DNA from: Candidatus Kerfeldbacteria bacterium
Lineage (GTDB): Bacteria; Patescibacteriota; Patescibacteriia; UBA10025; JAHIVO01
Assembly (NCBI GenBank): GCA_047946875.1
Contig: CP181398.1
Location: 574,514-638,513 of the forward strand
Direction of reading: 5' to 3'
Length of the DNA: 64,000 nucleotides
Shown: piece after piece, positions 544 to 20,055 of the stretch
Layout: each line of letters opens with the position of its first letter
Numbering within the stretch: position 1 is the stretch's first letter
Notes under the pieces: generated by a model
The model's input: only the letters and a program-made list of their open reading frames with translations
The model's database searches: none
Told to the model about the DNA's origin: nothing
Made by a program: the position numbers and the translations under genes

Positions 544-3500
544 TTACTCCTTATTTTCAATGCACCATCTGTAGGCATTTTGAAAAGGCAATAACCATGG
601 ACTAGCATCAAAATCACTAAATTCTTCAGGCATCCAAGGCCACTGCCAAGGTAAAAATACTCTTTCTGGATGAGGCATCATAGCTAAATGACGACCATCT
701 GGAGAACATAATGCAGCTATTCCCATCGGACTACCGTTAGGATTGTCAGGATAAATCTCAGTAATATTGCTATCATTATCAATAAACCTAATCGGAGCAA
801 GTTTATTATCCAAAATATAATTGGTAATACTATCACTCTTACAATGATAACGACCTTCACCATGCGCTACCCAGACTCCAAGTTTTGAACCAGACATTCC
901 TTTTAACATAATCGAAGGACTATCTTCAATAATGATTGTAGAAAATCTTGATTCAAATCTCTCAGAAATATTTCTGATAAACCTAGGCTGGTTATCAAGA
1001 TCAATATTCTGATGTGGAATCCATCCAAGTAATGCCATTAACTGACATCCATTGCAGATACCGAACGAGAATGTATCGGGGCGTTTATAAAATCTATCAA
1101 ACTGATCCATGAGATGATCATTAAATTTTATTACACCAGCCCAACCTTTCCCGGCATCCATTACATCAGCAAAAGAAAAACCTCCAACAAATGCAATTCC
1201 CTGAAAAACATCAAGAGTTATCTTGTTGTTAAGCAGATCATGCATTGTGACATCCCAAACTTCAAAACCAGCCATAAAAAATGCAGAAGCCATTTCCTTA
1301 TCACCATTACTACCTCGCTCTCGCAAAATAGCAACTTTTGGTTTTTCATTTGACTCAATGATATATTGAGAAGTTTTCTCCGGAGTAAAGGTTACTGAAT
1401 ATGGTGGCGGAGCAATCCTAGTTAGATTGAGATCAAACTCAGATTGAACACAGGCAGGATTTGTTTGTAATTTATCCAACTCCATACTTGTTGTTTCCCA
1501 AATTGCTCTTAACTCTACCATTGGTTTACTCAGCACTGAGCCACCGTCATGGTTAATGTTGACTTGGCCACCTCGTTTACCAACATGGCCAATCAAGAGA
1601 TAAGGAATATCATACTCTCTCAATATTTTCACAACTTTATTATAATCAGAACACTCGATTAATATTCCAGCTTCTTCATTGAATAAAGTTTGAATTATAT
1701 TATTAGACAGCAGATTAACATCTACACCAACATTCCCAGCGAAAGCCATCTCAAGTAAAGAGACTATCAAACCACCATCACTCTTATCGTGTAATGAGAA
1801 TATTAGTTTTTTCTCAACTAACTCTTGTATTACATTAAATGAAAGCTTTAGTAATTCGACATCATCTATGTCAGGAGATTCATCACCTATCTGTTGGAAT
1901 ACTTGCGCTAAAGCAGATCCACCAAGCCTATCTTTGCCACCGGACAAATCAATAAATATAATTTCACTGCCAGGTTTCTTGAAATCTGGTGTGACTTTAC
2001 AAGTTATATCATCTACTGTGGCATAGCCAGTAATCACTAATTCAGGAGGAGCTTTGACAATATGAGTATTACCATCAGGACCTTTTGTTTTAGCTGCCAT
2101 AGATAGACTATCTTTACCGCCATCTATAGCTATACCTAGCTTGATCATGATATCACGAACGGCACAGGCTGCCTTATACAACCAAGCACCTTCACCAGGT
2201 TCTTTAGCAGCTAACATCCAATTACCAGAACATTTGATATCTTCTAACTGAGTTATCTTAGTTCCTGATATGTTTAATAACATCTCGGAAACTGACAAAC
2301 GAGCTGCTGCTTCCGGGGAGATCAAACCTTTGTTTGGTTGTTCTCCAATACTTGAAGCGATACCCGAGATATCAAAATGACTTTGTGCTACAACTGCGCA
2401 GTCAGCCAAAGTAATATGATTCGGACCAACACATTGTTGTTGGGCAATCAAACCAGTCACGCTTCTATCAACTTTTGTTGTTAAAAAGCGTTTTGATCCA
2501 ACCGAAACTAAACGCAGTACTAAATCTAATGCACTGGCTACCGTTAAATCTTGTGGTAGTTCCAATGGTTTTAAGGTTGGTAAGATTGTTTCAAGTTTGA
2601 AAGTCTTACGAGGCAATTTACCCAGCACTTTATCAAGTGGTAAATTCACTGGTGTGGTCCCATCATTCTTATCAAAAAGAATAAATAAACCATCTCCTGT
2701 CACCTGACCAATCAAAGCACATGGCGCATCTTCTCTATCACATATTTCCTTCACTTGATCAAAACGATCAGAACGAATTAAAAAAACTATCCTTTCTTGG
2801 CTTTCATTACAATGAATTTCATAATCAGATAAAGTTGCATCGCCTACTGGTATAGATCTCAAATCGATAACCGCACCAGCTGGATTAACAAGTTCGGGAA
2901 CAGCATTACAATCACCGCCCGCACCTAAATCAACCACTAACTCAACAGGATTATCATCACCTAGATTCACAAAAGTTTGAATGACTCTTGCAAGTCTATT
3001 TTCCATTTGAGCATTGCCGCGTTGGACAGAAGCAAAATCAAGCTCTGCTTCATTTTCACCAGAAATCATTGAGCTTGCAGCACCGCCACCAACACCAATA
3101 CGATAAGCTGGACCACCCACTTGGACGACCAACATATCTTTCTTTGGTTTACCCACTTTACTATGTGCATCATCATATTGTCCAATACCACCAGCCAGCA
3201 TAAGAGGCTTAAACCAACTGCGATACCCATCCGGCAAATCAATTCCAAAAGTTCGAGCATACCCATAAATTACAGGCACACCATAACAATTGCCATAGTC
3301 TGAAGCACCATTACTGGCTTGGATCATTATATCCAAAGGTGAAGCAAGATTTGGTGGATATTCCCAACCGTCGTTTTCCCAAGGCAAATCATATCCTAGA
3401 ATATGTAAATTACCAGTGCAGTAACCGGCGTTTGCAGCAATAACCAAACCACCAAGTCTCATTGCTAAGATATCTCTGAGCCAACCACCTATACCAGTTG

Positions 3501-4449
3501 CCGCACCTTGATAAGGTTCAACACCAGTAGGATGATTATGAGTTTCCACCGATAATATTGGATGGTAGGTTCTGATAACTTGAATAAAGTTAGAAACCAA
3601 TCCTGGCGTACTAGGTAAAATAGTTCTTACTATTTTACCATTGATTGCCGAACTGTCATCGCCAAATGCCACATTAGAATTGCCTGGATTAACCTTCCAA
3701 GGTTTTTTTATAATGTACATAAGACTATGAGGCATTTTCTTACCATCAATATAGAATCGACCAGTAAAAAAACCATGGCGCGAGTGTTCCGAATTAGAAT
3801 TACCCAGCTGACCCATTTCAACATTATTAGTATCTCTCTGAAGAAAACTTACAAATAAATCTAGATATATTTGTAAATCTTGCAAATCCATACTCAGTCC
3901 TAACTGCTTGTTGATAGCAGTCAAGGCAGCTTCGCCCTGACCCATAACTGGAACAATTTGAACCGGCTCTATAATAGCACCAGATTCAAAGTTTTCTAAT
4001 GGTTTAGAATATTCTGTCTCCGTCATTCGATCACAGTACTTAGATAAAAAATCACTTTGCTCATTTTGGTTTAATTCAACACTAAAACCAAAACGACGAG
4101 ATTTTTCCAGTCTCACAACTTTGTCTAAGCCACAAGAATGACAAATTGAAACAGCAGAAGAAGACCAAGCAGTTTCGAAATTAAGACGAGGCCCAATTTC
4201 TAAAACTGTTTTACAATCATCCAAATTACTTGTTTGACTAAAGTAATCCTCTTCAAAAGTTTCACTTAACAACCATTTCAATTTTTCTAGCTCTGTAAAA
4301 GTTAACTTTGAACCGTTTTTAATTTCAACATAAAAACACCACTCAGTTATTAACTTTAAATCACGAATAAAATCAATTCTAAAATTATTTATAATCTTAG
4401 AGATCATTGATTCGCTTAAAGCGGGTTTCCGATAAAATCGAATTATCAT
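544..4449 (-). CDS. purL: phosphoribosylformylglycinamidine synthase, single-chain large form (FGAM synthase)
   Basis: 1301 aa ORF with N-terminal PurL/AIR-synthase-related domains and a C-terminal class I glutamine amidotransferase (FGICNGCQLMALLGWIP with the catalytic Cys). GGAG sits 8 nt upstream of the ATG. Confidence 0.95.
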   Translation of the reverse strand: MIIRFYRKPALSESMISKIINNFRIDFIRDLKLITEWCFYVEIKNGSKLTFTELEKLKWLLSETFEEDYFSQTSNLDDCKTVLEIGPRLNFETAWSSSAVSICHSCGLDKVVRLEKSRRFGFSVELNQNEQSDFLSKYCDRMTETEYSKPLENFESGAIIEPVQIVPVMGQGEAALTAINKQLGLSMDLQDLQIYLDLFVSFLQRDTNNVEMGQLGNSNSEHSRHGFFTGRFYIDGKKMPHSLMYIIKKPWKVNPGNSNVAFGDDSSAINGKIVRTILPSTPGLVSNFIQVIRTYHPILSVETHNHPTGVEPYQGAATGIGGWLRDILAMRLGGLVIAANAGYCTGNLHILGYDLPWENDGWEYPPNLASPLDIMIQASNGASDYGNCYGVPVIYGYARTFGIDLPDGYRSWFKPLMLAGGIGQYDDAHSKVGKPKKDMLVVQVGGPAYRIGVGGGAASSMISGENEAELDFASVQRGNAQMENRLARVIQTFVNLGDDNPVELVVDLGAGGDCNAVPELVNPAGAVIDLRSIPVGDATLSDYEIHCNESQERIVFLIRSDRFDQVKEICDREDAPCALIGQVTGDGLFILFDKNDGTTPVNLPLDKVLGKLPRKTFKLETILPTLKPLELPQDLTVASALDLVLRLVSVGSKRFLTTKVDRSVTGLIAQQQCVGPNHITLADCAVVAQSHFDISGIASSIGEQPNKGLISPEAAARLSVSEMLLNISGTKITQLEDIKCSGNWMLAAKEPGEGAWLYKAACAVRDIMIKLGIAIDGGKDSLSMAAKTKGPDGNTHIVKAPPELVITGYATVDDITCKVTPDFKKPGSEIIFIDLSGGKDRLGGSALAQVFQQIGDESPDIDDVELLKLSFNVIQELVEKKLIFSLHDKSDGGLIVSLLEMAFAGNVGVDVNLLSNNIIQTLFNEEAGILIECSDYNKVVKILREYDIPYLLIGHVGKRGGQVNINHDGGSVLSKPMVELRAIWETTSMELDKLQTNPACVQSEFDLNLTRIAPPPYSVTFTPEKTSQYIIESNEKPKVAILRERGSNGDKEMASAFFMAGFEVWDVTMHDLLNNKITLDVFQGIAFVGGFSFADVMDAGKGWAGVIKFNDHLMDQFDRFYKRPDTFSFGICNGCQLMALLGWIPHQNIDLDNQPRFIRNISERFESRFSTIIIEDSPSIMLKGMSGSKLGVWVAHGEGRYHCKSDSITNYILDNKLAPIRFIDNDSNITEIYPDNPNGSPMGIAALCSPDGRHLAMMPHPERVFLPWQWPWMPEEFSDFDASPWLLPFQNAYRWCIENKE

Positions 4450-4652: not shown

Positions 4653-5831
4653 TTAATCAATAGGGTTATTTCCGCTATCAATCTCAATTTTATCATCATA
4701 ACCGTCACCGTCTGTATCAGACTTATTATCGTTAGTTTGATAAACCAATTCTAAATAGTATGGGAGCCCATCATTATCATTATCTAAATCAATATCATCT
4801 TTTGCTACACTTTCCATATTTATAATATCAATTTCTCCTTTTTCTAATCCATCTTGGAAAACTAATTCTCTTATCATAAAAAAATAATACATTCTAAAAA
4901 ACGGAAACCTTACAATAATTGCGTCATCTTTTGTAAATCCTGGGGGGTAATCTATTTTCTCTGGACCAAAAACCATTCCAAAATAATAATACTGTCCATC
5001 ATCAATTACTGGAGTTAATACAAAGGGATTATTTTCCATCTCTAATATTCTATTTTTTATATCTTCGTTAATATCCAAATCCTTTATTAACTCCTCGTTA
5101 GAATTAAGCAAAAAATCACCATCGGCAAATTGAAATTGCTCGTCAGGTCGCACGTTAAAATCTATACGCATAAAATCAAGGTCATCTTGAGAAGAATAAT
5201 TAATTCGATTTTGAAATGCACTATATACTTCCTTAACTCTATCACCTACTAAAGAATGAAAAGCTGGCTGAAATTGTTCATTAGTTGATCCCCTTAATTC
5301 TTCAAGTCTATTGCCCCACGCTAGTAACTTAACATAATCATCCCAATATATTTCACTAATCCCAACATTTTCTAGTACTAATTTTTTATTATCACCAGTG
5401 TACTTTCCATTTATTAAATTTATATACTCTGTAATGGGTTTAAGTTCAATCCCCATTCTTATAATTGCTTCCTCAACTACATATCTATTTATAAATAAAT
5501 TTAAAGCAATAATTTCTTTTGGAGTTTTATTTAAATCTACTGGCATAATAAACTGCTGTTCCATACCTATAATAAATCCAGCCAGAGAATAGTTTGTTTC
5601 CATTTCACCTAACATTTCAACAATTCTTTCAAATTCAGTCTTATTAATATTATTATTAAAAACGGTTGCTATAGTATTGGCATCAACACTATTAATATTT
5701 ATATTTTCTATAACGGAATTATTGACATCAGATATATCTGACACTTCATTATTATTGACAGATAAATAATAAAATACGCCTCCTCCTATCAATACAACAA
5801 TGATAATAATTAAAATTAATATTTTATTCAT
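4653..5831 (-). CDS. hypothetical exported or membrane-anchored protein with a C-terminal Ca-binding-like DxDxDG acidic tail
   Basis: 392 aa with an N-terminal hydrophobic helix (ILILIIIIVVLIGGGVFYYL) and a C-terminus ...DTDGDGYDDKIEIDSGNNPID. AAAGGAG lies upstream of the ATG. I recognise no family. Confidence 0.55.
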   Translation of the reverse strand: MNKILILIIIIVVLIGGGVFYYLSVNNNEVSDISDVNNSVIENININSVDANTIATVFNNNINKTEFERIVEMLGEMETNYSLAGFIIGMEQQFIMPVDLNKTPKEIIALNLFINRYVVEEAIIRMGIELKPITEYINLINGKYTGDNKKLVLENVGISEIYWDDYVKLLAWGNRLEELRGSTNEQFQPAFHSLVGDRVKEVYSAFQNRINYSSQDDLDFMRIDFNVRPDEQFQFADGDFLLNSNEELIKDLDINEDIKNRILEMENNPFVLTPVIDDGQYYYFGMVFGPEKIDYPPGFTKDDAIIVRFPFFRMYYFFMIRELVFQDGLEKGEIDIINMESVAKDDIDLDNDNDGLPYYLELVYQTNDNKSDTDGDGYDDKIEIDSGNNPID

Positions 5832-6035
5832 ATTTTTATACTCCTTTGTTAATAATATATATAAACCCCCATAATATAGTTATACATTGGCACCTCACCC
5901 TCATGTGGTACACCCCCTAATCGCTATATATTATCTCTTAGCTTTATTATATGACTTATGGATAGTTTTGGCTATCCTAAAGGGAATATGTGTTGTATTG
6001 CGTCCACAATACCAGGATGTTATAGATTATAAATT

Positions 6036-7265
6036 TTATGCATGACTCCCTGCCACATATCCAGTTGTCCAACACAATTGCAATGAATACCCACCAGATG
6101 GCCTACTTATATGCAATAAATCACCTGTTACATAAAGATTGTCATACAAACGTGAACGCATAGTTTTACCATCCACTTCTTTGATAGAAACCCCCCCATC
6201 TGTTATTACAGCTCGATTAGCCCCCATCAATCCAGTGATTGTAGCAGGCATTGCTTTGAGTAAATTTACTATCTCTTTTCGTTGCTCTTTGGTAACACTA
6301 TGAACCTTAATATCTGGATCAAAAGTTAGCATTGAAAGTAAAGCATCAGTTATACCATCAGGAGTAATTTCTGAAAAAATATTTATTAGAATTTTATTTT
6401 TATTTGCATTAAATACTTTTGTGATTCTTTTATCAAGAGTACCGAGATCTGTGTCAGGATAAGCGTCAATCTCCATGGTAACTTCTCCTTCATGTAATAG
6501 CTTGTAAACTTTTGCTGCCAAGTTTAATATCATTGGTCCAGAAAATCCAAAGTGTGTAAATAAAATTTTTCCCTTCTTCTTGATTACGCTCTTGCCATCT
6601 ACAAAAAAAGTAACCTTAATAGCTGATAGAGAAACTCCTGATAATTTTTTTACCCAAGATTCCTTTACAGCCAACGGGACTATGGTAGGTGTTGAGTCTT
6701 CAACAGTATGCCCTAATTTTTTTAACCATGTAAAACCATCTCCCGTTGAGCCAGTCTCAGGATGAGATTTACCTCCAGTAGCAAGAATAAAAGAAGTTGC
6801 CGTTATTTTTTTACCATTTACGATAATATGAGACACTTTCTTATTACTGCCTACTATTTCATCTACATTTACACCCTTTCTTACTTCCACTCCACCTTCT
6901 TTCATATATCGTTCCATAGTTTTGGAAACATCATTTGCTTTTTCCGATTCTGGGAAAGCTCTCTTTCTTGCTTGGACTACTAGGGGTAAATTTTGTTTGG
7001 CAAAAAAATCAAATGTATCTTCCATACCAAATTGATTAAATGAAGAATATAAAAAATTCTTTGCGTTTCCATAATTTGATAACAAGATTGTTTCTGATTC
7101 TTCTGCGTTGGTGATATTACATCTTCCGCCACCAGAGATATCTAACTTAACTCCAAGTTCTTTATTTTTTTCCAACAACAAAACACTCTTACCACGACTA
7201 GCGGCAGTACCTGCAGCCATCATCCCTGATGGACCTCCTCCGATTACAATTATATCGTATTTCAT
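6036..7265 (-). CDS. FAD-dependent flavoprotein of the HI0933/YhiN family (NAD(P)/FAD-dependent oxidoreductase)
   Basis: 409 aa. The N-terminal DIIVIGGGPSGMMAAGTAASRGKSVLLLEKN Rossmann motif followed by GGGRCNITN is the signature of the HI0933/YhiN family. Confidence 0.8.
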   Translation of the reverse strand: MKYDIIVIGGGPSGMMAAGTAASRGKSVLLLEKNKELGVKLDISGGGRCNITNAEESETILLSNYGNAKNFLYSSFNQFGMEDTFDFFAKQNLPLVVQARKRAFPESEKANDVSKTMERYMKEGGVEVRKGVNVDEIVGSNKKVSHIIVNGKKITATSFILATGGKSHPETGSTGDGFTWLKKLGHTVEDSTPTIVPLAVKESWVKKLSGVSLSAIKVTFFVDGKSVIKKKGKILFTHFGFSGPMILNLAAKVYKLLHEGEVTMEIDAYPDTDLGTLDKRITKVFNANKNKILINIFSEITPDGITDALLSMLTFDPDIKVHSVTKEQRKEIVNLLKAMPATITGLMGANRAVITDGGVSIKEVDGKTMRSRLYDNLYVTGDLLHISRPSGGYSLQLCWTTGYVAGSHA

Positions 7266-7288
7266 ATATAACAGTATACCAAGAAATT

Positions 7289-8620
7289 CTATCTACCGAA
7301 AGAAAAATCCTCCATAACAATATTATCTTTTTTTAATCCTTGCTCAATTAATTTTTTCTGATAATCATTCATCATCTGATGCGGACCACATAAAAATACT
7401 ACCGTATTATCAATCTTTCTCACTCTCTTCATAACAGTATCAACGGACAATCTCCCTTGATTATCAGAACATTGATTTATATAGAAAGAATCAGGGATCT
7501 TACCCAAGACACCAGTTAACTCAATGTCTAGACAAGCATCGTTCTTGGTCTTGGTACAATAATATAAGCTTACCCACTGACCATTATTCTTTTTGGCAGC
7601 ATCTTTTACCATGCTAACAAATGGCGCCACTCCAACCCCGCCTCCAATAAATATTAAATCTTTGTCATCTGATAATTTATCTGAGAATCTACCATAAGGG
7701 CCATAAATTTCAGCCTGATCTCCTATTTTTAAATTATCCAAACTAGAAGTGTAATCTCCCAATATTTTAATAGCAAATGATAATTCATTTTCATCCACAT
7801 GAGAAGTAATTGAGAATGGATGCATTTCTTTTTTAACTTCACTATCAAAATAAGTAATGTATGCAAATTGCCCTGGATTATATTTCATTTTATTACCCTC
7901 TGGTTCGAAGCTAACTAAATACGTATCACTTTTCTTTACTATCTTACTTACCTTATATTTATACTTAGCCGCTAATGATTTATAAAAAAATTGAATATAA
8001 ATATAAGCTGCTAACCCTGTTCCCCCTACTGCCATCATCCAATATCCTAACAATGGATAAATAGATGTATCACTAGGAGTACCTAGCATATGGAAATATC
8101 CAAATAACAGAGCTAAACCATAGAATTTATGAGTAAATCTCCATCGTTCGTAAGTTAATTTAATATACAGGGTTATTACTGTTAAAATTATAAATAACCA
8201 AAAACCAATAATACCAACATCTAAAGGAAGTTGTCCATTGGTTGGTAGAAAAAACTTAAGATTAAATATTTTATCTGGGAAATTCATCAGAGCTAACGTA
8301 ATAGGATGCACAATCAATAAAACTATTCCATAAATACTTACTTTTTTATGAATGGCATATACCTTATCAAGGCCACCAAACATATATTCCACAAAATGAA
8401 GTCGACTACTAAGTAGCATACTCCAACTTAATAACGTCATTCCAAATAAAGAAGCTATCTGAGAAATCAATAGCATTGGATAAGAAGTTATTTCTAGCCA
8501 AAAATCAGTTTTTGCTAAAAACCACAAAATCATTGTAGTATGAAGAGTAATAACAATCAATAAATTACCTACTCTATAAATTGGCTTACTTTTTTTTATT
8601 TTAATTTTTTCTTCTGCCAT
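7289..8620 (-). CDS. ferric reductase / NADPH-oxidase (NOX/FRE) family protein: bis-heme transmembrane domain plus FAD- and NAD-binding domains
   Basis: 443 aa. The N-terminal TM domain has His pairs spaced 13-14 residues apart in two helices (IHKK...VHPIT and FTHKF...YFHML). It is followed by HPFSITS (FAD-binding, FNR-type), GGGVGVAPFVSMV (NAD-binding) and a C-terminal FLCGP motif. Confidence 0.7.
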   Translation of the reverse strand: MAEEKIKIKKSKPIYRVGNLLIVITLHTTMILWFLAKTDFWLEITSYPMLLISQIASLFGMTLLSWSMLLSSRLHFVEYMFGGLDKVYAIHKKVSIYGIVLLIVHPITLALMNFPDKIFNLKFFLPTNGQLPLDVGIIGFWLFIILTVITLYIKLTYERWRFTHKFYGLALLFGYFHMLGTPSDTSIYPLLGYWMMAVGGTGLAAYIYIQFFYKSLAAKYKYKVSKIVKKSDTYLVSFEPEGNKMKYNPGQFAYITYFDSEVKKEMHPFSITSHVDENELSFAIKILGDYTSSLDNLKIGDQAEIYGPYGRFSDKLSDDKDLIFIGGGVGVAPFVSMVKDAAKKNNGQWVSLYYCTKTKNDACLDIELTGVLGKIPDSFYINQCSDNQGRLSVDTVMKRVRKIDNTVVFLCGPHQMMNDYQKKLIEQGLKKDNIVMEDFSFGR

Positions 8621-9099
8621 ATTACATATCCTAAGATTGCTATTAAGGGTAAAAATATTGCAATCAAACCTTTTATTAATTTACTTTTATCTTTATCCTC
8701 TTCTACAGAAGTTGCAACAACTTCCGCTATCTTATTGTCGTCAGTATTACTAACCGTATTTATATTTGTATTAACTGAATCAGTAGAAATGCTACTATTA
8801 GTATTAGAGATTGTATTAGTATTTACTGAAGTATCATCCACTACATCCTCTGTAGGCTCAACAGCTGTAACTTCTTCTACAATCTCTGCAGTTGCATCAA
8901 CCCTATCTTCTGGAGCTAACTGAGAATGATCGCAAAGACCATCATTATCTGTATCTACATATCTAGGACATTCTCCTGGATAAGGATCATCAACTAAACC
9001 AAATGGACAGTCATCCCAAGCTAAAACTTCTGTTACTCCAGAGAATATTGAAAATAATATTACTAGCGAAACAACAGAAACTTTTATATACTTGGTCAT
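8596..9099 (-). CDS. small exported Cys/Asp-rich protein with a C-terminal membrane anchor
   Basis: 167 aa with a signal peptide (...TEVLA|WDD). The mature domain reads CPFGLVDDPYPGECPRYVDTDNDGLCDHS: four Cys plus a DxDxDG Ca-binding-like loop. A Thr/Ser/Asn-rich linker and a C-terminal TM helix plus KKKLK follow. Its stop overlaps the start of the ferric-reductase gene by 25 nt. Confidence 0.55.
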   Translation of the reverse strand: MTKYIKVSVVSLVILFSIFSGVTEVLAWDDCPFGLVDDPYPGECPRYVDTDNDGLCDHSQLAPEDRVDATAEIVEEVTAVEPTEDVVDDTSVNTNTISNTNSSISTDSVNTNINTVSNTDDNKIAEVVATSVEEDKDKSKLIKGLIAIFLPLIAILGYVIWQKKKLK

Positions 9100-9107
9100 A
9101 GTTTTAA

Positions 9108-9752
9108 TTAATTACATTTATCAAAAGCTGGTAAATGTTTATCATCTGAAGCATTCATTAAACTAGTAAATATTGTGGTGATATCTTCATAGTCAGTAAC
9201 CGCTGGCAATAACTCATCAGAATATAATGCAGCATTGGCAATCTCGGCCTCTACACCTAACTGACATGAATCAGTAATAGTTACAGGTACTGTCAAAGCG
9301 CTTACATCATAAGGATCGGCAGGAATAGTAGCACCATATTTATCATAAATAGCTTTCAATGAAGAAATATGCTGCTCCTCTGCTCGAATAATCATTGAGA
9401 AAGGTCGGACAGATCCATATTCAGCAATCACTGCTTCATAAGTAGCTCGAGCTTTATATTCATCATCGATAGCTTTATCTAGTGCAGTCAAGACTTCACT
9501 CTCCAACTCTGATACCGGGTAATCAAGATTATCAACCTTTAGACAATCATCAGCGACACAGTTTGATTTAGTAACAATTTCATCGACTACTATATCATTG
9601 TTATATGTAGTATTTATATTAGTATCACTAGCAACAGTGTTTATAACTGCTGTTTCGGTTGTCGTAGAATCATCTGTAATTGTACAACCTGATAAAAATA
9701 TTGCTCCGATGGCTAGCACACCGACTAGTGCAAACAACTTTAAATGTTTCAT
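9108..9752 (-). CDS. lipoprotein with a ferritin-like DUF2202 domain
   Basis: 214 aa with a lipobox (LSGC). DEYKARATYEAVIAEYGSVRPFSMIIRAEEQHISSLKAIYDKYG matches the DUF2202 ferritin/rubrerythrin-like signature. Confidence 0.7.
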   Translation of the reverse strand: MKHLKLFALVGVLAIGAIFLSGCTITDDSTTTETAVINTVASDTNINTTYNNDIVVDEIVTKSNCVADDCLKVDNLDYPVSELESEVLTALDKAIDDEYKARATYEAVIAEYGSVRPFSMIIRAEEQHISSLKAIYDKYGATIPADPYDVSALTVPVTITDSCQLGVEAEIANAALYSDELLPAVTDYEDITTIFTSLMNASDDKHLPAFDKCN

Positions 9753-9805
9753 ATTATATTATTTATTATTAATTTGATATTGATATTATTACACAATTTG
9801 TTAAA

Positions 9806-9840
9806 TTTATCTATATTAGTATAATGCCTCTTTCATTAAC
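9806..9840 (-). terminator. terminator after the GC-rich secreted-protein gene
   Basis: 11-bp stem GCCTCTTTCAT...ATGAAAGAGGC, followed on the minus strand by an A/T-rich tract. Confidence 0.4.
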
Positions 9841-9889
9841 ACTTGTCATATGAAAGAGGCACAAACTAGGGATAAAGGGGTGTATTTAT

Positions 9890-10330
9890 TTAATTGTCTA
9901 AATCACAATTCCCGTCTCCGGCACCACCTTGTCCTTGACCTCCGCCGGTACCGCTACCGCCTCTTTGGCCAAAACCCATTTCACCTGAATGTGGTCCGTC
10001 GCCTGAAGCTATCATAGCATCACGTGCTGCTACTCGCTCGGAAATTTCTTCCTCACTTAAGCCGCGTTCTGCCCATCTGTCCATAGCTTTAGCACTCATC
10101 TGAGCATGCATTTCATCTATATCAACTCCCTGTTGTAGGGCGATTTCTTCGAAATCCATTGTCTCGTGAGCAACTGTTAATTCATCTACTGTCATTCCGA
10201 ATACTTCGGCTTTTGTCTCCATCATGCGATCAGAACCGGATCCGTTGTCACTAGCAGCTAGAGCAACGGCTCCGCCCACGAGGGTAAATGCAGTAAGACC
10301 AAGAACAGCGCTAAAGATATATTTTTTCAT
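9890..10330 (-). CDS. hypothetical secreted protein encoded by a GC-rich (about 50%) gene
   Basis: 146 aa with a signal peptide (AVALAAS) and a Gly-rich C-terminus (GGSGTGGGQGQGGAGDG). Codon usage and GC content differ sharply from the neighbouring genes. Confidence 0.6.
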   Translation of the reverse strand: MKKYIFSAVLGLTAFTLVGGAVALAASDNGSGSDRMMETKAEVFGMTVDELTVAHETMDFEEIALQQGVDIDEMHAQMSAKAMDRWAERGLSEEEISERVAARDAMIASGDGPHSGEMGFGQRGGSGTGGGQGQGGAGDGNCDLDN

Positions 10331-10529
10331 ATTTGGTTTACTTCTTTTAGTTAGTTAATTATTAATTATCGACCTTGCACTAATTATTACGCAGTAGAAA
10401 CGGTTTTATTTCAATAAAAAAAACACTCCTTACTTATGAGGTATTTCAAGTATTATTTAAATTCTTTTAACTACTATCTAATCCATACTTCAGATTCTGA
10501 CTCAGGAAAAGAAACAGGACAATTCCCCT

Positions 10530-10568
10530 TTTCAAAAAAATAGCCTCTTAATTAACTGGGGCTATTTT
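10530..10568. terminator. bidirectional terminator at the end of the MFS transporter gene
   Basis: TAGCCTCttaattaactGGGGCTA flanked by an A8 and a T8 run. Confidence 0.45.
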
Positions 10569-11739
10569 TTTTATTATATTTCCAAAGTAAATAAGCACCA
10601 GTAAAAAAAGCTGGAATAGTTATCAACATAGCAATTCTTGGGCTATCTGTTAAGACAACCAAGGTGCCAAATAAAACAGGTCCTATCCCAGCTGACGACC
10701 TTGAAGCTAAGGCATAAATTCCAAAATCAAGCCCAGCATGTTTCGCTTCAGAAACCTGAGTATAATAAGCTCGCAATAGAGATTGGGTAGAACCGATAAC
10801 TAAGGCACCAAGCACACCCACAACAACTAGCTGTATTTTAGTTTGAACGACAAAAATACCTAATACTATAATTATCCAAATAGCTACTGAAACTAAAAGT
10901 GGTTTAATTACACCAAATTTTTTTCCCATTCTCCCAAATATCCAAGTGGCTGGAAAAGCAATAAACTGAATACCGATCAAAAAAATACCTAATTCTTTAA
11001 TACTTACACCTAACGTCTCTCTGGCATAAAGACTACCAAAAAAAGTAATAATATATATTCCCCCACTAATAAACCAGACTACAATTAATAGTGTTAAAAC
11101 GTTATTTATTTTTGCTTCTTGCCAAGCTTCTTTCAGTGAGGTAATGGCTTGTTCACTTACAATTTGTGAGGGCAAAAGTTTTAATGACACAATAGAAAAA
11201 ATAACAAAAAATCCTGCCGTTACATATATTCCAACTACAGACGGATCCGTCGATCCACCCTGTGCTACGATCACAAGTGCTAAACATACTAATCCACCTA
11301 AATATCCAAAACCCCAAGCAAAAGATGAAACAATACTGGCATTTTCTTTGGGAGCAATCTGAGGCAGGAATGAATCATAAATAATCTGCGATAAAACAAA
11401 AAAGATATTAGTAAACAATAATACAATAAAATAAACTTGCACCGAAATCTCAGTTAACAAACCAAGTAAAATAACTCCGACAACTGCCAAAGCTATAAAA
11501 TAAGAAAAGATCTTCTTTCTATTGCCAATATCACTCCTATGACCAAAAAAAGGTCCGAGTAATATAGCAATAGTAACACTTAAAGAAATTCCTAATCCCC
11601 ACCAAAAATCAGAACTCCTCGCCCCCTCCATGATTGTTTCCTTAAAAAACAATGGAAACAAAAAAGAAAGCATAATCAGCACATAGCCAGTATTAGCAAA
11701 ATCGTAAAACGCAAAACCCCAAAAATGTTTTTTATTCAT
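10552..11739 (-). CDS. MFS transporter
   Basis: 395 aa with about 12 predicted TM helices and the GHRSDIGNRKK loop after TM2, which is typical of the major facilitator superfamily. Confidence 0.8.
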   Translation of the reverse strand: MNKKHFWGFAFYDFANTGYVLIMLSFLFPLFFKETIMEGARSSDFWWGLGISLSVTIAILLGPFFGHRSDIGNRKKIFSYFIALAVVGVILLGLLTEISVQVYFIVLLFTNIFFVLSQIIYDSFLPQIAPKENASIVSSFAWGFGYLGGLVCLALVIVAQGGSTDPSVVGIYVTAGFFVIFSIVSLKLLPSQIVSEQAITSLKEAWQEAKINNVLTLLIVVWFISGGIYIITFFGSLYARETLGVSIKELGIFLIGIQFIAFPATWIFGRMGKKFGVIKPLLVSVAIWIIIVLGIFVVQTKIQLVVVGVLGALVIGSTQSLLRAYYTQVSEAKHAGLDFGIYALASRSSAGIGPVLFGTLVVLTDSPRIAMLITIPAFFTGAYLLWKYNKKNSPS

Positions 11740-11951
11740 GTGATAAGTATACCAAGAAAAACCATTCCAATAAAGAAATTTTTCAAAATAAAAAAGGGAC
11801 CGACAATGTCAAACCTTAAATACTTTTTTTAAGTATAGCTAAAACTTGAATTTACCTTCATGCCACATAATAGAAAATACTAGCAATAACGTTTGATAAG
11901 CTTTTTGATTTTAGCAACGATAATTTAAAATTTATTTCATCTGCCGTTTTT

Positions 11952-13022
11952 TTATTTACTTTTTACTGGCAGACTATTACTTTGAAAATACTTCAAATAC
12001 ATTTCGATGGTAGTAACTAATAATATCATGATCACAGGGCCATAGATGAACCCTAAAATTCCAAAAACCTGCAAACCTCCAATCACTCCTAATATAATTA
12101 AAGCTGGATGAAGTTCGGCTTTTTTTGATACAAGTTTTGGTCGTAAAAAATTATCAATATTCCCGATAATCAGAACACTCACCACAAGTAACATTATCCC
12201 CTGCCATATACCGCCAGTTAAAAATAAAATTGCAATAATTGGTACCATTACAAAACCATAACCAACCATCGGGATAACTCCTAAAAAAACCATTATTAAA
12301 GTTAAAAATAAAACATACGGAACTCCAGCTATTGCTAAAAATATTCCTGATACAACACCCTGAACAAGAGAAATAGCGAAAGTTCCCTTGATCATCGATT
12401 TAGACATTTCAATAACTCTAGTGAAATAAACCGTATCTATTCTATCATCTAATGGACTGAGTTTCTCAAAAAACTTAAATAACTTTTTGTATAATGGAAA
12501 GAAAGAATACAAAAGAATTATATACATAATTACCCAAGTAAATGTATTGAATGCTCCACTGCCAATATTAGGTAATCTTTCTAAGAAATAATTCCCTACC
12601 GCCTCAGCTCCATTATTAATATGAACCTTGGCTTCCATAACCGTCAAAGTACTCATATCTCCCGGCATGATGGATGCTAAATCATTAAATCTTGTTACGA
12701 AGTTTTCTATATTAACTATCCCCCCCGATCCAGTAAAGTCTTCACTTAATTGTATTATCTGATTTACAGTCAATGCTCCAACCAAAACTATGGGAATTAA
12801 AACTACAAAAAATACTATTACAACCGTCATTAAAGCTGCAACTTTTTGTTTTTTAATGAAATGTCTATGAAACCACTCGTATACTGGTTTAAAAAATGCA
12901 GCCGTTAGAAAAGCTAAAATTATTGCTGAAAAGAATGGTTTCAAAACCATAAAAGAAAGAACCAATATTATTAGTGCAATAAGATAAAAAAATGATTGTC
13001 TTTGTAATAAATTAATTTTCAT
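11952..13022 (-). CDS. AI-2E family transporter (PerM/YdiK-like, UPF0118)
   Basis: 356 aa polytopic membrane protein with the characteristic AI-2E layout, including the long N-terminal TM pair and a C-terminal cluster of TM helices. Confidence 0.75.
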   Translation of the reverse strand: MKINLLQRQSFFYLIALIILVLSFMVLKPFFSAIILAFLTAAFFKPVYEWFHRHFIKKQKVAALMTVVIVFFVVLIPIVLVGALTVNQIIQLSEDFTGSGGIVNIENFVTRFNDLASIMPGDMSTLTVMEAKVHINNGAEAVGNYFLERLPNIGSGAFNTFTWVIMYIILLYSFFPLYKKLFKFFEKLSPLDDRIDTVYFTRVIEMSKSMIKGTFAISLVQGVVSGIFLAIAGVPYVLFLTLIMVFLGVIPMVGYGFVMVPIIAILFLTGGIWQGIMLLVVSVLIIGNIDNFLRPKLVSKKAELHPALIILGVIGGLQVFGILGFIYGPVIMILLVTTIEMYLKYFQSNSLPVKSK

Positions 13023-13223
13023 ATTATCTAGTATAATTATATCAAAAATTACTAAAACAGACGAGGTAATTATGACCCTGCAAATGGAGTCCCAAATATT
13101 CCAACGCTAAGTTCCGCCCAAATAAGAAGAAGTGCTATCCCAATTACTATAGATAATATTCTATATTTCCAACTAATCATTTTTATTACTTAGTAGTAAT
13201 ATGTGTTCTCGTATTTTTAATTC

Positions 13224-14270
13224 CTACCTTGCTGGCAATTCTTTTTTACACACTCCGCTATCACATGTCAAAATAGCCTTGCTCTGCTCTTCGCAATAAT
13301 AATCATCCCATAATGGACATTTAGCAAAATTACATCCATATTCCGCCTGTAATTCTGAATATTTCGTACTAAAATCTTCTAGATTCACTCCTACCCATTG
13401 TTCTTCGTCATAATCAGGGCAATCTTGTTGTGGACAACATACACTAAAATCCTCTGTAGTGTCAGCGAACATACAATCAGATGCTTGTTCGCAAGACGTT
13501 GATACACCTAAATTTAATAACTTTTGTGAATTATTCCCGCATATAGTTTCACATTCACCTATATCAACAAACGGAATAGTATCACCCATTGAGCTACATC
13601 CGGATATATATTTGCATAACGAACCGTCGTAGTATACACCGAGTACCATTTCACACGTACCATAACTTTGAGAGGGACGCCAATTGCAAATCTCATTTGT
13701 CCCTTGCATGGCTGTACAATCAAGGTCAATACATCCCATGAATCGAGAATTACTACACATACATTCTTCAGTTGCTTCATTTGTACATTTTCCATACCAC
13801 TCTGAAGACGTATTACACTCGCATGTTTCTACAGAAAGACAATCCTCTCGTTTGTTACAACGAGTATTGTCAGAAATGTCACCACATGAAACACTCCCGC
13901 TTGATGGACAATAACAACTCCCTGCACCGCCACAATCAGCCGTACAAATATCTCCACTACAGCCACTTGAAACACATCTTTGTTCACAGTTGGTAGGGCA
14001 GTCACCATATGTAAACTGACTGCAATAATCATTCGTACATGTAGAAGTAGTGTTTACGTTTATGCTATTTGTATTAGCATTATTTAATATTGCAGTATTT
14101 ATATTTATATTATTACTATTCAAACTAGGACTTTTACCTATTGAAAACACAAATAACATAATTGCTACTCCAACTACTAATGAAATTCCAACAATACTTA
14201 CTCCAATCCAAAGAATTACTTTATTACCTTTAATTTTATTTTCGGAAGAGTCGTCTTGTTGAATTGACAT
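13224..14270 (-). CDS. Cys-rich exported protein with an N-terminal TM anchor and an Asn-rich linker
   Basis: 348 aa. An N-terminal TM helix is followed by an Asn-rich low-complexity segment, then about 48 Cys arranged in repeated CxxC, CxC and CC patterns. GC content is higher than the flanking genes. The internal ORFs in the track are spurious. Confidence 0.6.
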   Translation of the reverse strand: MSIQQDDSSENKIKGNKVILWIGVSIVGISLVVGVAIMLFVFSIGKSPSLNSNNININTAILNNANTNSINVNTTSTCTNDYCSQFTYGDCPTNCEQRCVSSGCSGDICTADCGGAGSCYCPSSGSVSCGDISDNTRCNKREDCLSVETCECNTSSEWYGKCTNEATEECMCSNSRFMGCIDLDCTAMQGTNEICNWRPSQSYGTCEMVLGVYYDGSLCKYISGCSSMGDTIPFVDIGECETICGNNSQKLLNLGVSTSCEQASDCMFADTTEDFSVCCPQQDCPDYDEEQWVGVNLEDFSTKYSELQAEYGCNFAKCPLWDDYYCEEQSKAILTCDSGVCKKELPAR

Positions 14271-14424
14271 ATTTATTAATTTAACTTTCTCCCATGTAAA
14301 GATTACTTATATATTATACCAAAAAACACCTCCGTTAACCACTAAAGGATTCACGGCCTTGTATATAGGGAGATTGCTTCTGTCGGGGGTTAGTGGACAA
14401 AGTAAGAACTGAGATTCGATATAA

Positions 14425-14871
14425 TCAACTACTAGAAAAATCTCCAAATAATAATCCCACTATAAATATTATATAAAATAATGACATAAAAATTATTAAA
14501 GATATTTTTCGGATATGAGTAGCTTTAGAAATATTATCTAATTGCCATTGAAATATTTTTTTTGAATACGAATAAGCACTTAGAGATAAAAGACTACCAA
14601 GCACAATTAAAGCAATTGCAAATAAATATATTATTAATTGATGATCCCCTGATAAAATACTCCCAATTATTAAATAACAACTAAAACATAAAAAAAATAA
14701 CCCAAAAAATACACCAGACCTAAATCCATTTAGTCTTTTAATATTATCGGTGGACTGAAACTTCTTAACCCACTTAGTATTGTTAACTTTTGTAAATGCT
14801 TTAATACTTAAATAAATCATTGAGACCGTAAATACTATTATTGGAATTATTGTGCCTTGATTAACAGACAT
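14425..14871 (-). CDS. hypothetical small membrane protein (4 TM)
   Basis: 148 aa, mostly hydrophobic helices. Confidence 0.45.
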   Translation of the reverse strand: MSVNQGTIIPIIVFTVSMIYLSIKAFTKVNNTKWVKKFQSTDNIKRLNGFRSGVFFGLFFLCFSCYLIIGSILSGDHQLIIYLFAIALIVLGSLLSLSAYSYSKKIFQWQLDNISKATHIRKISLIIFMSLFYIIFIVGLLFGDFSSS

Positions 14872-14904
14872 AAAATCATACTAATTTATTTTTATTATAA
14901 TTCA

Positions 14905-14978
14905 AGTATACCAAAAAACACCTCAACCTGCGAGGTGAGCTCTGGCAGGGGCTCGTACCTGCCTGCCGGCAGGCAGGG
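14905..14978 (-). terminator. terminator + extended -10 promoter cassette: two hairpins, T6, then TGGTATACT
   Basis: Minus strand CCCTGCCTGCCGGCAGGCAGGG ... CACCTCgcaggttGAGGTG-TTTTTT-GGTATACT. It terminates the 14997..15734 gene and provides an extended -10 (TGnTATAcT) about 34 nt before the 14425..14871 start. Confidence 0.55.
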
Positions 14979-20051: not shown

Positions 20052-20055
20052 TAAT

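What the first reader, a model, noticed from the sequence alone, without database searches (positions are those of the whole stretch)
6036..9752. Putative extracytoplasmic redox/iron module: NOX/ferric-reductase + overlapping Cys/Ca-motif surface protein + ferritin-like DUF2202 lipoprotein + YhiN flavoprotein
Four consecutive co-directional genes read as follows. First is a DUF2202 ferritin-like lipoprotein. Second is a small signal-peptide protein with a CPFG...C...C...DTDNDGLCD metal- or Ca-binding-looking domain and a C-terminal TM anchor. Third is a bis-heme ferric-reductase/NOX protein with FAD- and NAD-binding domains. Fourth is a YhiN-family flavoprotein. The small protein's stop overlaps the NOX start by 25 nt, which implies translational coupling and possibly a physical partnership. 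NOX/FRE-type enzymes move electrons from cytoplasmic NAD(P)H to an extracellular acceptor. Pairing one with an extracellular ferritin-like protein and a Cys-motif protein suggests a surface iron-reduction and storage system, or a peroxide or superoxide handling system. A peroxiredoxin and several Cys-rich exported proteins lie nearby. I know of no characterized system with this composition.
Basis: inference. Interest (0 to 1): 0.55.

Follow-up and report, generated by a model that had tools for sequence, protein, structure and literature searches.

The report
NOX enzyme with tethered Cys-domain partner
A tiny-genome (CPR) bacterium encodes a membrane enzyme that moves electrons from NAD(P)H to the cell exterior, always next to a small tethered cysteine-motif protein and often next to a ferritin-like lipoprotein, which points to a candidate natural protein acceptor for bacterial NOX enzymes.

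Summary
All four ORFs and the 25-nt overlap are real. The window is from a Candidatus Kerfeldbacteria (CPR) MAG.

- **Gene 3** is a SpNOX-type flavocytochrome b with every cofactor motif present.
- **Gene 2** carries Pfam PF27309 (MJ0753_N), a roughly 40-aa extracytoplasmic domain with three invariant Cys and an EF-hand-like loop. I found no paper on it.
- **Gene 1** is a divergent DUF2202 four-helix bundle. Its only solved sequence relative is MJ0754.
- **Gene 4** is a YhiN/RdsA-family flavoprotein.

Synteny splits the module. The MJ0753_N gene abuts or overlaps the NOX gene in seven lineages (NOX 42-60% identical). The DUF2202-like gene joins in three of them, on either side of the pair. YhiN is not conserved.

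Elsewhere MJ0753_N is fused to DUF4405-like cytochrome-b membrane domains. As four-repeat Tat-exported proteins it abuts NapH-like Fe-S membrane proteins. In other CPR lineages cytochrome-b5 proteins occupy its slot beside NOX, an operon already published.

Best reading: an NAD(P)H-driven electron-export module whose acceptor is the tethered MJ0753_N domain, probably serving iron redox at the ferritin-like lipoprotein. The cofactor and end-use are inferred. It is a new variant of a known kind, of moderately high interest.

The parts
7289..8620 (-). NOX/ferric-reductase-family flavocytochrome b (443 aa): bis-heme TM domain plus a cytoplasmic FAD/NAD(P)H dehydrogenase domain
   Evidence: Pfam Ferric_reduct 42 bits, FAD_binding_8 41.6 bits, NAD_binding_1 47.8 bits. 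Best PDB hit is SpNOX 8qt6/8qq7, E=6e-31 over residues 59-441. Motifs present: H91-x13-H105, H164-x12-H177, HPF267, GGGVGVAP326, CGP411.
8596..9099 (-). Small tethered extracytoplasmic protein (167 aa): signal peptide, MJ0753_N domain, about 75-aa acidic linker, C-terminal TM anchor
   Evidence: Precomputed Pfam PF27309 = MJ0753_N. Custom domain HMM E=1e-27. Topology.
8899..9018 (-). MJ0753_N domain proper (aa 28-67): WDDCPFGLVDDPYPGECPRYVDTDNDGLCDHSQLAPEDRV
   Evidence: Across 170 domain instances C31, C44 and C56 are 99-100% conserved. The column of D38 is D 64% / C 25% / E 8%. The loop D-T-[DN]-x-[DN]-G-I-C-D-x-S-[QE] resembles an EF-hand.
8620..8676 (-). C-terminal TM anchor of the small protein (aa 142-160), followed by the cytoplasmic tail WQKKKLK
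   Evidence: Hydropathy and charge analysis.
8596..8620 (-). 25-nt overlap between the end of the small gene and the NOX start codon (possible translational coupling)
   Evidence: Homologous pairs overlap by 22 nt (L033), 8 nt (L001) and 4 nt (L007), or are separated by 2 nt (L004, L034) or 14 nt (L108).
9108..9752 (-). Divergent DUF2202-type ferritin-like four-helix-bundle lipoprotein (214 aa) with a T/N-rich tether
   Evidence: AF2 model has pLDDT about 97 over residues 85-213. Foldseek finds ferritins, bacterioferritins and MJ0754. The family profile hits only MJ0754 in the PDB, E=6.6e-5. MJ0754 is bona fide DUF2202, 193.7 bits. Invariant residues: E98, E125, H128, E170, H206 and four Cys.
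9890..10330 (-). Small secreted helical protein with a Gly-rich tail ending in a Cys motif ('gr1', 146 aa); a recurrent neighbour, probably on its own transcript
   Evidence: No Pfam hit. Homologues sit upstream of the MJ0753_N-NOX pair in L033 and upstream of the DUF2202-like gene in L111. A non-homologous analogue ('gr2') fills the same slot in L001, L004 and L108, and also lies upstream of an MJ0753_N gene on the short contig L077.
9825..9861 (-). Perfect 12-bp hairpin between the gr1 gene and the DUF2202-like gene (terminator or regulatory element)
   Evidence: Fold energy -24.4 kcal/mol, z = -6.3, 0 of 200 shuffles as stable.
6036..7265 (-). YhiN/HI0933-like FAD protein (409 aa); co-directional, 23 nt downstream of NOX; probably a passenger rather than a module member
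   Evidence: HI0933_like 252 bits, TIGR00275 413 bits. Absent next to NOX in L001, L007, L033, L034 and L108. In L004 it lies 3 kb away on the opposite strand. E. coli YhiN is the rRNA dihydrouridine synthase RdsA (PMC11317573).

Best explanation
The functional unit is a translationally coupled pair: the small tethered MJ0753_N protein plus a SpNOX-type flavocytochrome b. The DUF2202-type ferritin-like lipoprotein is a recurrent third member.

Proposed mechanism: cytoplasmic NAD(P)H reduces FAD in the dehydrogenase domain. Electrons cross the membrane through the two b hemes. The exposed outer heme then reduces a metal centre held by the three invariant Cys plus an Asp/Cys/Glu position of the MJ0753_N domain. 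That domain hangs on a flexible linker of about 75 residues from its own membrane anchor, like a tethered carrier. From there electrons most likely serve iron redox chemistry at the ferritin-like di-iron lipoprotein. This would be Fe(III) reduction or mobilisation, a NAD(P)H-powered, quinone-independent counterpart of the MJ0753/MJ0754 and DUF4405/DUF2202 pairings.

Shown here: gene identities, cofactor motifs, topology, conserved coupling, domain fusions and displacement by cytochrome b5.

Inferred: that MJ0753_N binds a redox-active metal, the direction and end-point of electron flow, and the iron end-use.
For: 1. The MJ0753_N gene directly precedes or overlaps NOX in 7 lineages. NOX identity to the window was measured in 6 of them, at 42-60% (window, L033, L108, L001, L004, L007). 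L034 is placed by its NOX HMM score only.
2. Family-wide, the domain is mostly fused to a C-terminal His-bearing TM domain that weakly matches DUF4405. DUF4405 and FezC bind heme b (PMC11334425).
3. Four-repeat forms abut NapH-like Fer4_5 membrane Fe-S proteins in 4 of 4 loci. Of the nine four-repeat proteins sampled, 8 carry twin-arginine signals.
4. In other CPR lineages the same slot beside NOX holds membrane-anchored Cyt-b5 heme proteins. This is a published CPR operon.
5. There are three invariant Cys plus one column that alternates D/C/E, the pattern expected of a metal ligand.
6. The DUF2202-like gene sits upstream of the pair in the window but downstream in L001 and L034. A DUF2202 gene lies 2 kb from a fused form in L038. 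MJ0753 and MJ0754 have consecutive locus tags. Ferrosome (fez) clusters contain both DUF4405 and DUF2202 proteins.
7. Fur, Zip, ABC-3 and ArsR genes lie near related loci.
8. The SpNOX authors state that O2 may not be the physiological acceptor and that a protein acceptor may exist.
Against: - No cofactor is demonstrated. AF2 could not fold the domain (pLDDT about 55).
- Single-domain forms, including this one, use Sec-type signals, so any cofactor must be acquired outside the cell.
- The loop could simply bind Ca2+, and the Cys could form a disulfide.
- The DUF2202-like gene is adjacent in only 3 of 7 NOX-type lineages and 1 of 19 well-flanked fused-form loci. Its closest homologue (L111) has no NOX nearby, and its family (at least 1412 hits) is far larger than the set of NOX-linked genes.
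- No iron-uptake or Fur gene lies in this window.
- CPR bacteria are not known to make heme; that point rests on my own knowledge.
Confidence: 0.5

Rival explanations
1. Extracytoplasmic oxygen/peroxide defence. The electron path is the same, but the DUF2202-type di-iron protein acts like a rubrerythrin and the MJ0753_N domain like its rubredoxin. NAD(P)H would then reduce H2O2 or O2 at the cell surface of an anaerobe that has no respiratory chain.
For: - Weak Rubrerythrin Pfam hits on DUF2202-like homologues and on MJ0754. One source names a homologue rubrerythrin.
- A Cys3+Asp/Cys site resembles a rubredoxin-type centre.
- ECF sigma factors of one subfamily accompany MJ0753_N genes, consistent with envelope-stress control.
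- Peroxiredoxin genes lie near NOX in L110 and 7 kb away in the window.
Against: - The Rubrerythrin hits are below the gathering score.
- The fourth-helix ExxH motif is not conserved; only H206 is.
- The DUF2202 link is partial.
- The metal-homeostasis neighbours (Fur, Zip, ABC-3, ArsR) and the ferrosome precedent favour iron handling.
Confidence: 0.2
2. The small protein is a non-redox accessory subunit. It would be a membrane-anchored stabilising or regulatory partner of NOX, in the manner of p22phox or DUOXA, or an external Ca2+ sensor acting through its EF-hand-like loop. NOX itself would reduce O2 or Fe(III) chelates directly.
For: - A single TM helix and tight coupling to NOX.
- A good EF-hand-like loop, with EF-hand Pfam hits on P0003.
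- AF2 sees no fold without ligands.
- SpNOX works alone in vitro.
Against: - It does not explain the Tat-exported four-repeat forms coupled to NapH-like Fe-S proteins.
- It does not explain the replacement of the slot by cytochrome-b5 heme proteins.
- It does not explain the D/C/E ligand-like column.
- The long linker places the domain far from its own anchor.
Confidence: 0.2
3. One reading: DUF2202, the small protein, NOX and YhiN work together, with YhiN as a second flavoprotein component.
For: YhiN is co-directional and 23 nt downstream of NOX. A YhiN homologue lies 3 kb from NOX in L004.
Against: - There is no YhiN next to NOX in 5 of 6 other lineages, and in L004 it is on the opposite strand.
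- The protein is soluble with no signal peptide or TM helix.
- The E. coli family member is a 23S rRNA dihydrouridine synthase (PMC11317573).
Confidence: 0.07

Closest known systems
SpNOX (Streptococcus pneumoniae NOX; PDB 8qt6, 8qq7) and the NOX/FRD superfamily
   Same: Same single-chain architecture: a six-TM bis-heme domain plus an FAD/NAD(P)H domain. It is the best PDB hit (E=6e-31), and the His spacing, HPF, GxGxxP, CGP and C-terminal aromatic residues are conserved.
   Different: SpNOX has no described partner gene, and its physiological acceptor is unknown. Here a dedicated small extracytoplasmic protein is translationally coupled to the enzyme.
CPR-specific pFre + cytochrome b5MY / cyt-b5-like operon (bioRxiv 10.1101/2021.11.17.468889)
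   Same: The same NOX-type enzyme family in CPR bacteria, flanked by small membrane-anchored extracytoplasmic proteins. I saw this arrangement in L008, L009, L109 and L110.
   Different: In the window lineage the cytochrome-b5 proteins and the two-component system are absent. The slot holds an MJ0753_N Cys-domain protein, and a DUF2202-like lipoprotein joins the cluster.
MJ0753/MJ0754 of Methanocaldococcus jannaschii; DUF4405 and FezC cytochromes with DUF2202 proteins in ferrosome (fez) clusters
   Same: An MJ0753_N domain (in FezC, an HMA domain) attached to a small b-type cytochrome membrane domain, encoded near a DUF2202 ferritin-like protein.
   Different: Here the half-cytochrome b is replaced by a self-sufficient NAD(P)H-oxidising NOX, and the domain sits on a separate tethered polypeptide. 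No FezB-type P1B-ATPase is nearby. The MJ0753/MJ0754 adjacency is inferred from locus-tag numbering and was not verified here.
MsrQ-MsrP
   Same: An FRD-superfamily heme-b membrane protein that hands electrons to a dedicated periplasmic protein partner. The SpNOX authors use this analogy.
   Different: MsrQ takes electrons from quinol or Fre and has no dehydrogenase domain. Its partner is a molybdoenzyme, which is absent here.
NapG-NapH
   Same: The Tat-exported four-repeat MJ0753_N proteins abut NapH-like Fer4_5 membrane proteins. This is positionally analogous to the four-cluster periplasmic ferredoxin NapG paired with NapH. The NapGH facts are from my own knowledge.
   Different: This applies to relatives, not to the window. 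MJ0753_N repeats have 3 Cys each and no ferredoxin CxxCxxCxxxCP motif.

Membership tests
NOX / ferric-reductase-domain (FRD) superfamily, SpNOX-type | Ferric_reduct TM domain with two His pairs (spacing 13 and 12 intervening residues) for two b hemes | tested here: met
   PF01794 at 42.2 bits against a cut-off of 28. H91/H105 and H164/H177 are invariant in the three-sequence alignment with the L001 and L004 NOX homologues.
NOX / ferric-reductase-domain (FRD) superfamily, SpNOX-type | C-terminal FNR-like dehydrogenase domain with the FAD motif HPF[ST] and the NAD(P)H motifs GxGxxP and CGP | tested here: met
   FAD_binding_8 and NAD_binding_1 are above their cut-offs. HPF267, GGGVGVAP326 and CGP411 are present. 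The alignment to SpNOX spans residues 59-441.
NOX / ferric-reductase-domain (FRD) superfamily, SpNOX-type | NAD(P)H-dependent reduction of O2 to superoxide, or of Fe(III) | not testable with these tools
   An enzymatic property. Even for SpNOX the physiological acceptor is questioned.
Pfam PF27309 MJ0753_N | Match to the family model, with the signature W-D-D-C-P-x-G...P-G-x-C...Y-x-D-T-D-x-D-G-x-C-D-H-S directly after a signal peptide | tested here: met
   Precomputed PF27309 on the identical protein P0001. The family name appears. My own HMM gives E=1e-27. The local Pfam copy lacks the model.
Pfam PF09968 DUF2202 (MJ0754-type ferritin-like) | Score above the Pfam gathering threshold | tested here: not met
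   17.6 bits against 22. Close homologues score 19-22 bits. Some cluster members carry a precomputed PF09968 assignment.
Pfam PF09968 DUF2202 (MJ0754-type ferritin-like) | Four-helix ferritin-like bundle homologous to MJ0754, with E / ExxH / E / H ligand positions | tested here: met
   AF2 four-helix bundle at pLDDT about 97. Foldseek finds MJ0754 (3q4n/3q4r) at 20-21% identity. The profile against PDB sequences hits only MJ0754, E=6.6e-5. Jackhmmer seeded from MJ0754 recovers the window protein. I therefore file it as a divergent relative, not a certified member.
HI0933-like / TIGR00275 (YhiN, RdsA family) | Full-length match above the curated cut-offs | tested here: met
   PF03486 at 252 bits against 50, and TIGR00275 at 413 bits against 184. 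The rRNA dihydrouridine synthase activity itself was not tested.
CPR pFre-cytochrome b5 operon (bioRxiv 10.1101/2021.11.17.468889) | Cyt-b5-domain genes adjacent to pFre | tested here: not met
   No Cyt-b5 hit among the window ORFs from 4653 to 14270. My custom b5 HMM finds nothing in the window.
CPR pFre-cytochrome b5 operon (bioRxiv 10.1101/2021.11.17.468889) | Adjacent two-component system | tested here: not met
   No response-regulator or histidine-kinase domain among the Pfam-scanned ORFs at 4653-21390. 544-4449 and several other stretches of the window were not scanned.
Ferrosome (fez) cluster | FezB P1B-6 ATPase together with a FezC/DUF4405 cytochrome | tested here: not met
   No E1-E2 ATPase or DUF4405 hit among the scanned ORFs around the locus. 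Only the DUF2202-like element is shared.

The most novel reading that the evidence does not exclude
MJ0753_N is an unrecognised, widespread class of extracytoplasmic one-electron carrier domain. It comprises about 1,250 clusters at 50% identity across CPR bacteria, DPANN and other archaea, and other anaerobes. The proposed centre is a mononuclear Fe or small Fe-S site on Cys3 plus Asp/Cys. The domain would plug into three unrelated membrane electron conduits: NOX-type flavocytochromes, DUF4405-like cytochromes b and NapH-like Fe-S proteins. In CPR bacteria it would make NOX a NAD(P)H:protein oxidoreductase that feeds a surface di-iron protein. That would be the first defined physiological protein acceptor of a bacterial NOX, and a quinone-free electron-export chain in organisms thought to lack one.
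Probability: 0.25. Interest if true: 0.8.

Novelty: new variant of a known kind. Interest (0 to 1): 0.6.

Why it matters
Bacterial NOX homologues are used as structural models for human NADPH oxidases, yet their natural electron acceptor is an acknowledged open question. This locus and its relatives nominate a concrete, genetically coupled candidate acceptor that can be expressed and tested.

The analysis also gives a first functional context to a Pfam family with no literature that I could find. That family recurs with three kinds of membrane electron conduit.

Finally, it suggests how quinone-less, fermentative CPR bacteria could spend cytoplasmic NAD(P)H on surface iron or oxidant chemistry. 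That bears on their iron acquisition, oxygen tolerance and episymbiotic lifestyle.

Tried and rejected
- **AF2 of the small protein.** With a 27-sequence alignment the Cys domain came out at pLDDT 50-60 with no secondary structure. I ran no fold search on it, and no complex model was possible.
- **Single-sequence PDB search of the DUF2202-like protein.** It gave only noise. The family profile was needed.
- **NOX-centred genome scan.** It returned only four full-length relatives because the back-translated patterns were narrow.
- **Promoter scan.** Hits were no more frequent than in shuffled sequence (25 against 24.1), so it was uninformative. The terminator scan missed the hairpin, which I found by eye and confirmed.
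- **Homology between the two Gly-rich neighbour families.** None detected between gr1 and gr2 (hhalign probability 0.9%).
- **Metal-homeostasis neighbours.** Homologues of the YibE_F, DUF134, Fur, Zip, ABC-3 and ECF sigma genes seen in L001 and L033 are absent from the 64-kb window.
- **YhiN as a module member.** Rejected on synteny and on the literature.
- **Peroxiredoxin as part of the locus.** Rejected on distance.
- **Natural MJ0753_N-NOX fusions.** None among the best 150 family representatives.
- **Literature.** Searches for MJ0753 returned no papers, and MJ0754 returned one irrelevant paper.

Full report
**1. Observation**

The region holds four co-directional minus-strand ORFs at exactly the stated coordinates: 9752..9108, 9099..8596, 8620..7289 and 7265..6036. 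The gaps are 8 nt and 23 nt, and the second and third genes overlap by 25 nt (8596-8620). The three exported or membrane proteins are 100% identical to proteins of a Candidatus Kerfeldbacteria (CPR/Patescibacteria) MAG.

**2. Gene identities**

*NOX (443 aa).* It scores above the Pfam cut-offs for Ferric_reduct, FAD_binding_8 and NAD_binding_1. Its best solved relative is the full-length Streptococcus pneumoniae NOX, 8qt6/8qq7, at E=6e-31 over residues 59-441. The cofactor motifs are all present:
- the two heme-ligand His pairs, H91-x13-H105 and H164-x12-H177;
- HPF267;
- GGGVGVAP326;
- CGP411.

The N-terminus is Lys-rich and there is no signal peptide.

*YhiN.* The downstream gene is a full-length HI0933-like/TIGR00275 flavoprotein. 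The E. coli member of this family, YhiN, is the 23S rRNA dihydrouridine synthase RdsA (PMC11317573).

*Ferritin-like lipoprotein.* The first gene has a lipobox (LSGC) and a T/N-rich tether. Its Pfam DUF2202 match is below threshold (17.6 bits against 22). Other evidence places it as a divergent DUF2202-type protein:
- AF2 with 30 homologues gives a confident four-helix bundle (pLDDT about 97 over residues 85-213).
- Foldseek finds ferritins, bacterioferritins and MJ0754 of M. jannaschii. MJ0754 has the highest sequence identity among the listed matches, 20-21%.
- The family profile hits only MJ0754 among all PDB sequences (E=6.6e-5).
- MJ0754 is a bona fide DUF2202 at 193.7 bits.

Invariant residues are E98, E125-x-x-H128, E170, H206 and four Cys. 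The family is large in Patescibacteria, with at least 1412 hits.

*Small protein (167 aa).* From N- to C-terminus it has a Sec-type signal peptide (…VLA|WDDC), a roughly 40-aa Cys motif, an acidic low-complexity linker of about 75 aa, one TM helix and a KKKLK tail. The collection's precomputed annotation assigns PF27309, named MJ0753_N. The local Pfam copy lacks this model, and no paper in the library mentions MJ0753.

**3. Synteny of the module**

The MJ0753_N gene directly precedes NOX in seven distinct lineages. NOX identity to the window was measured in six of them (42-60%); L034 is placed by HMM score only.

| Locus | Junction between the two genes |
|---|---|
| window | 25-nt overlap |
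| L033 | 22-nt overlap |
| L001/L002/L003 | 8-nt overlap |
| L007 | 4-nt overlap |
| L004/L005/L006 | 2-nt gap |
| L034/L035 | 2-nt gap |
| L108 | 14-nt gap |

The DUF2202-like gene is about 50% identical to the window's in L001, and the L034 copy is P0200, 59% identical. It is adjacent in three of the seven lineages, but on different sides of the pair: upstream in the window, downstream in L001 and L034. Linkage that survives a change of order argues for function rather than inheritance. The link is still partial. The closest homologue (71% identity, L111) has no NOX within 6 kb.

YhiN is co-directional only in the window. In L004 it lies 3 kb away on the other strand. I treat it as a passenger.

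A small secreted helical protein with a Gly-rich tail (window 9890-10330, 'gr1') recurs upstream of the pair in L033 and upstream of the DUF2202-like gene in L111. A non-homologous analogue ('gr2') holds the same slot in L001, L004 and L108 and also precedes an MJ0753_N gene on the short contig L077. In the window, gr1 is separated from the DUF2202-like gene by a very stable hairpin at 9825-9861 (-24.4 kcal/mol, z=-6.3).

**4. What the MJ0753_N domain associates with elsewhere**

A full-library profile search finds 1246 clusters (at 50% identity) with E<=1e-3.

*Fusion to a cytochrome-b-like membrane domain.* This is the dominant architecture. The domain is followed by a C-terminal His-bearing TM domain (WHVE…FHIxWHW) that weakly matches DUF4405 (E=2.6e-4 to 0.03, below the gathering score). 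DUF4405 and FezC have been shown experimentally to bind heme b (PMC11334425). DUF4405 was earlier assigned to the cytochrome b superfamily and found next to ferritin-like genes in Thermococci (PMC5898192).

*Four-repeat soluble forms.* Eight of nine carry canonical twin-arginine signals, for example SRRRFLLLGGG. In all four loci with enough flanking sequence they abut or overlap a NapH-like membrane protein with two Fer4_5 domains and a Fer4 domain (L078, L092, L096, L112).

*Displacement by cytochrome b5.* In CPR lineages whose NOX is 31-36% identical to the window's, membrane-anchored Cyt-b5 heme proteins fill the slot beside NOX (L008, L009, L109, L110). A preprint already describes this as a CPR-specific pFre/cytochrome-b5 operon of unknown function.

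So one small domain is attached or coupled to three unrelated membrane electron conduits, and a heme protein can replace it. This is the main argument that it is an extracytoplasmic electron acceptor or relay.

*Conservation.* In 170 domain instances the three Cys are 99-100% conserved. One further column alternates D 64% / C 25% / E 8%, as a fourth metal ligand would. The C-terminal half is a good EF-hand-like loop, D-T-[DN]-x-[DN]-G-I-C-D-x-S-[QE]. One repeat of P0003 hits the EF-hand Pfam models just below threshold (24.6 bits against 25.4).

*Other neighbours.* ECF sigma factors of one subfamily, together with a conserved membrane protein, accompany both the fused forms and the NOX-type loci L033 and L108. 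ArsR-type regulators accompany three loci whose gene content looks archaeal.

**5. The ferritin link beyond CPR**

- The domain's namesake, MJ0753, and the DUF2202 structure MJ0754 carry consecutive locus tags. Adjacency is inferred from that numbering and could not be fetched here.
- A fused-form locus, L038, has a full DUF2202 gene 2 kb downstream.
[quoted passage not shown] FezC is a metal-binding HMA domain joined to a half-cytochrome b.
- L001 and L033 carry Fur, Zip, ABC-3 and YibE_F genes near the pair.

Against generality, only 1 of 19 well-flanked fused-form loci has a DUF2202 gene within 6 kb. None of the metal-homeostasis genes is present in this window.

**6. Mechanism**

Most likely, cytoplasmic NAD(P)H reduces FAD. 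Electrons then pass through the inner and outer b hemes to a metal centre in the tethered MJ0753_N domain, and on to iron chemistry at the ferritin-like lipoprotein.

A NOX with its own dehydrogenase domain, in place of the quinol-dependent half-cytochrome b, fits the fact that CPR bacteria generally lack quinones. That last point is from my own knowledge. Long flexible tethers on both the small protein and the lipoprotein would let them shuttle near the membrane surface.

| Reading | Probability |
|---|---|
| Gene 2 and NOX are partners | about 0.85 |
| MJ0753_N is a redox or metal acceptor | about 0.55 |
| The iron end-use specifically | about 0.35 |
| Rubrerythrin-like surface peroxide/oxygen defence | about 0.2 |
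| Non-redox accessory subunit or Ca2+ sensor | about 0.2 |
| The four-gene module including YhiN | below 0.1 |

**7. Known versus new**

The enzyme is a member of the SpNOX-type NOX family. The general arrangement, a CPR NOX flanked by small anchored extracytoplasmic proteins, is already published for cytochrome b5. The association of DUF4405 cytochromes with DUF2202 proteins is also known.

I did not find the following described anywhere:
- MJ0753_N as the coupled partner of NOX;
- the wider pattern of MJ0753_N with three classes of electron conduit;
- the three-gene module of NOX, MJ0753_N and the DUF2202-like lipoprotein.

I therefore rate it a new variant of a known kind. The SpNOX cryo-EM authors wrote that O2 may not be the physiological acceptor and that a protein acceptor may exist. 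This locus makes that question directly testable.

Noticed in passing
window 9825-9861 (-): A perfect 12-bp stem with a 13-nt loop lies 29 nt after the stop codon of the 146-aa Gly-rich protein gene. Fold energy is -24.4 kcal/mol, z=-6.3. No clear U-tract follows. It could be a terminator, an attenuator or a processing site separating that gene from the DUF2202-like/MJ0753_N/NOX/YhiN run.
   Followed up: partly
window 9890-10330 (-); L033 5990-6448; L111 5446-5889; L001 5527-5922; L004 5419-5790; L108 3693-4136: Two non-homologous families of small secreted helical proteins with Gly-rich tails occupy the slot upstream of the MJ0753_N-NOX pair or of the DUF2202-like gene. Several end in a shared C-terminal motif of the type G-x-x-D-C-x-L-x-N. 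They have no Pfam hit and no known function.
   Followed up: partly
L078 3880-4755, L092 363-860, L096 727-1188, L112 274-1104 and the gene after each: Soluble proteins made of repeated MJ0753_N domains abut a NapH-like membrane protein (two Fer4_5 domains plus a Fer4 domain) in all four loci. L078 and L112 carry four repeats, and L112 has a Tat signal. On the short contigs L092 and L096 only two repeats were detected, and their signal peptides were not examined. The pair looks like a NapG/NapH-style unit with a different periplasmic carrier.
   Followed up: partly
L040-L049, L054, L055, L062, L064, L065; L033 8533-9081; L108 2260-3572: One ECF sigma factor subfamily, together with a conserved membrane protein of about 240-257 aa (possibly an anti-sigma factor), sits next to MJ0753_N genes. 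This holds for both the fused forms and the NOX-coupled forms. Neither gene is present in the window.
   Followed up: partly
L074, L079, L080, L082, L084 (gene immediately upstream of the MJ0753_N fusion gene): A stand-alone DUF4405-like half-cytochrome gene of about 110 aa directly precedes the MJ0753_N-cytochrome fusion gene, which suggests a heterodimeric cytochrome. An ArsR-type regulator follows in L074, L080 and L084.
   Followed up: no
L109 868-7930: A cytochrome-b5-type NOX cluster lies next to a CsoR-like repressor, a copper P-type ATPase, an HMA-DsbD_2 protein and a TspO/MBR (porphyrin-binding family) protein. This may hint at copper or heme handling in that lineage.
   Followed up: no
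L001 1740-2186: A second, shorter DUF2202-like paralogue (148 aa) lies beside the Zip and Fur genes, 4 kb upstream of the MJ0753_N-NOX-DUF2202 cluster.
   Followed up: no
L108 4303-4986; P0035, P0049, P0062; L041 10210-10794: A helical module of the type '…KTVAEIAEIY…' is inserted between the MJ0753_N domain and the membrane part in some proteins. It also occurs in a separate secreted neighbour protein. Its function is unknown.
   Followed up: no
window 13224-14270 (-) and 4653-5831 (-): The first is a 348-aa membrane-anchored protein very rich in Cys, with no Pfam hit. The second is a 392-aa anchored protein ending in TSP3/EF-like DxDxDG repeats. Both look like surface proteins unrelated to the module by synteny.
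   Followed up: no
window 1-64000: GC skew is negative in nearly every 2-kb bin, and almost all long ORFs in the first 28 kb are on the minus strand, consistent with one replication arm read in reverse.
   Followed up: no
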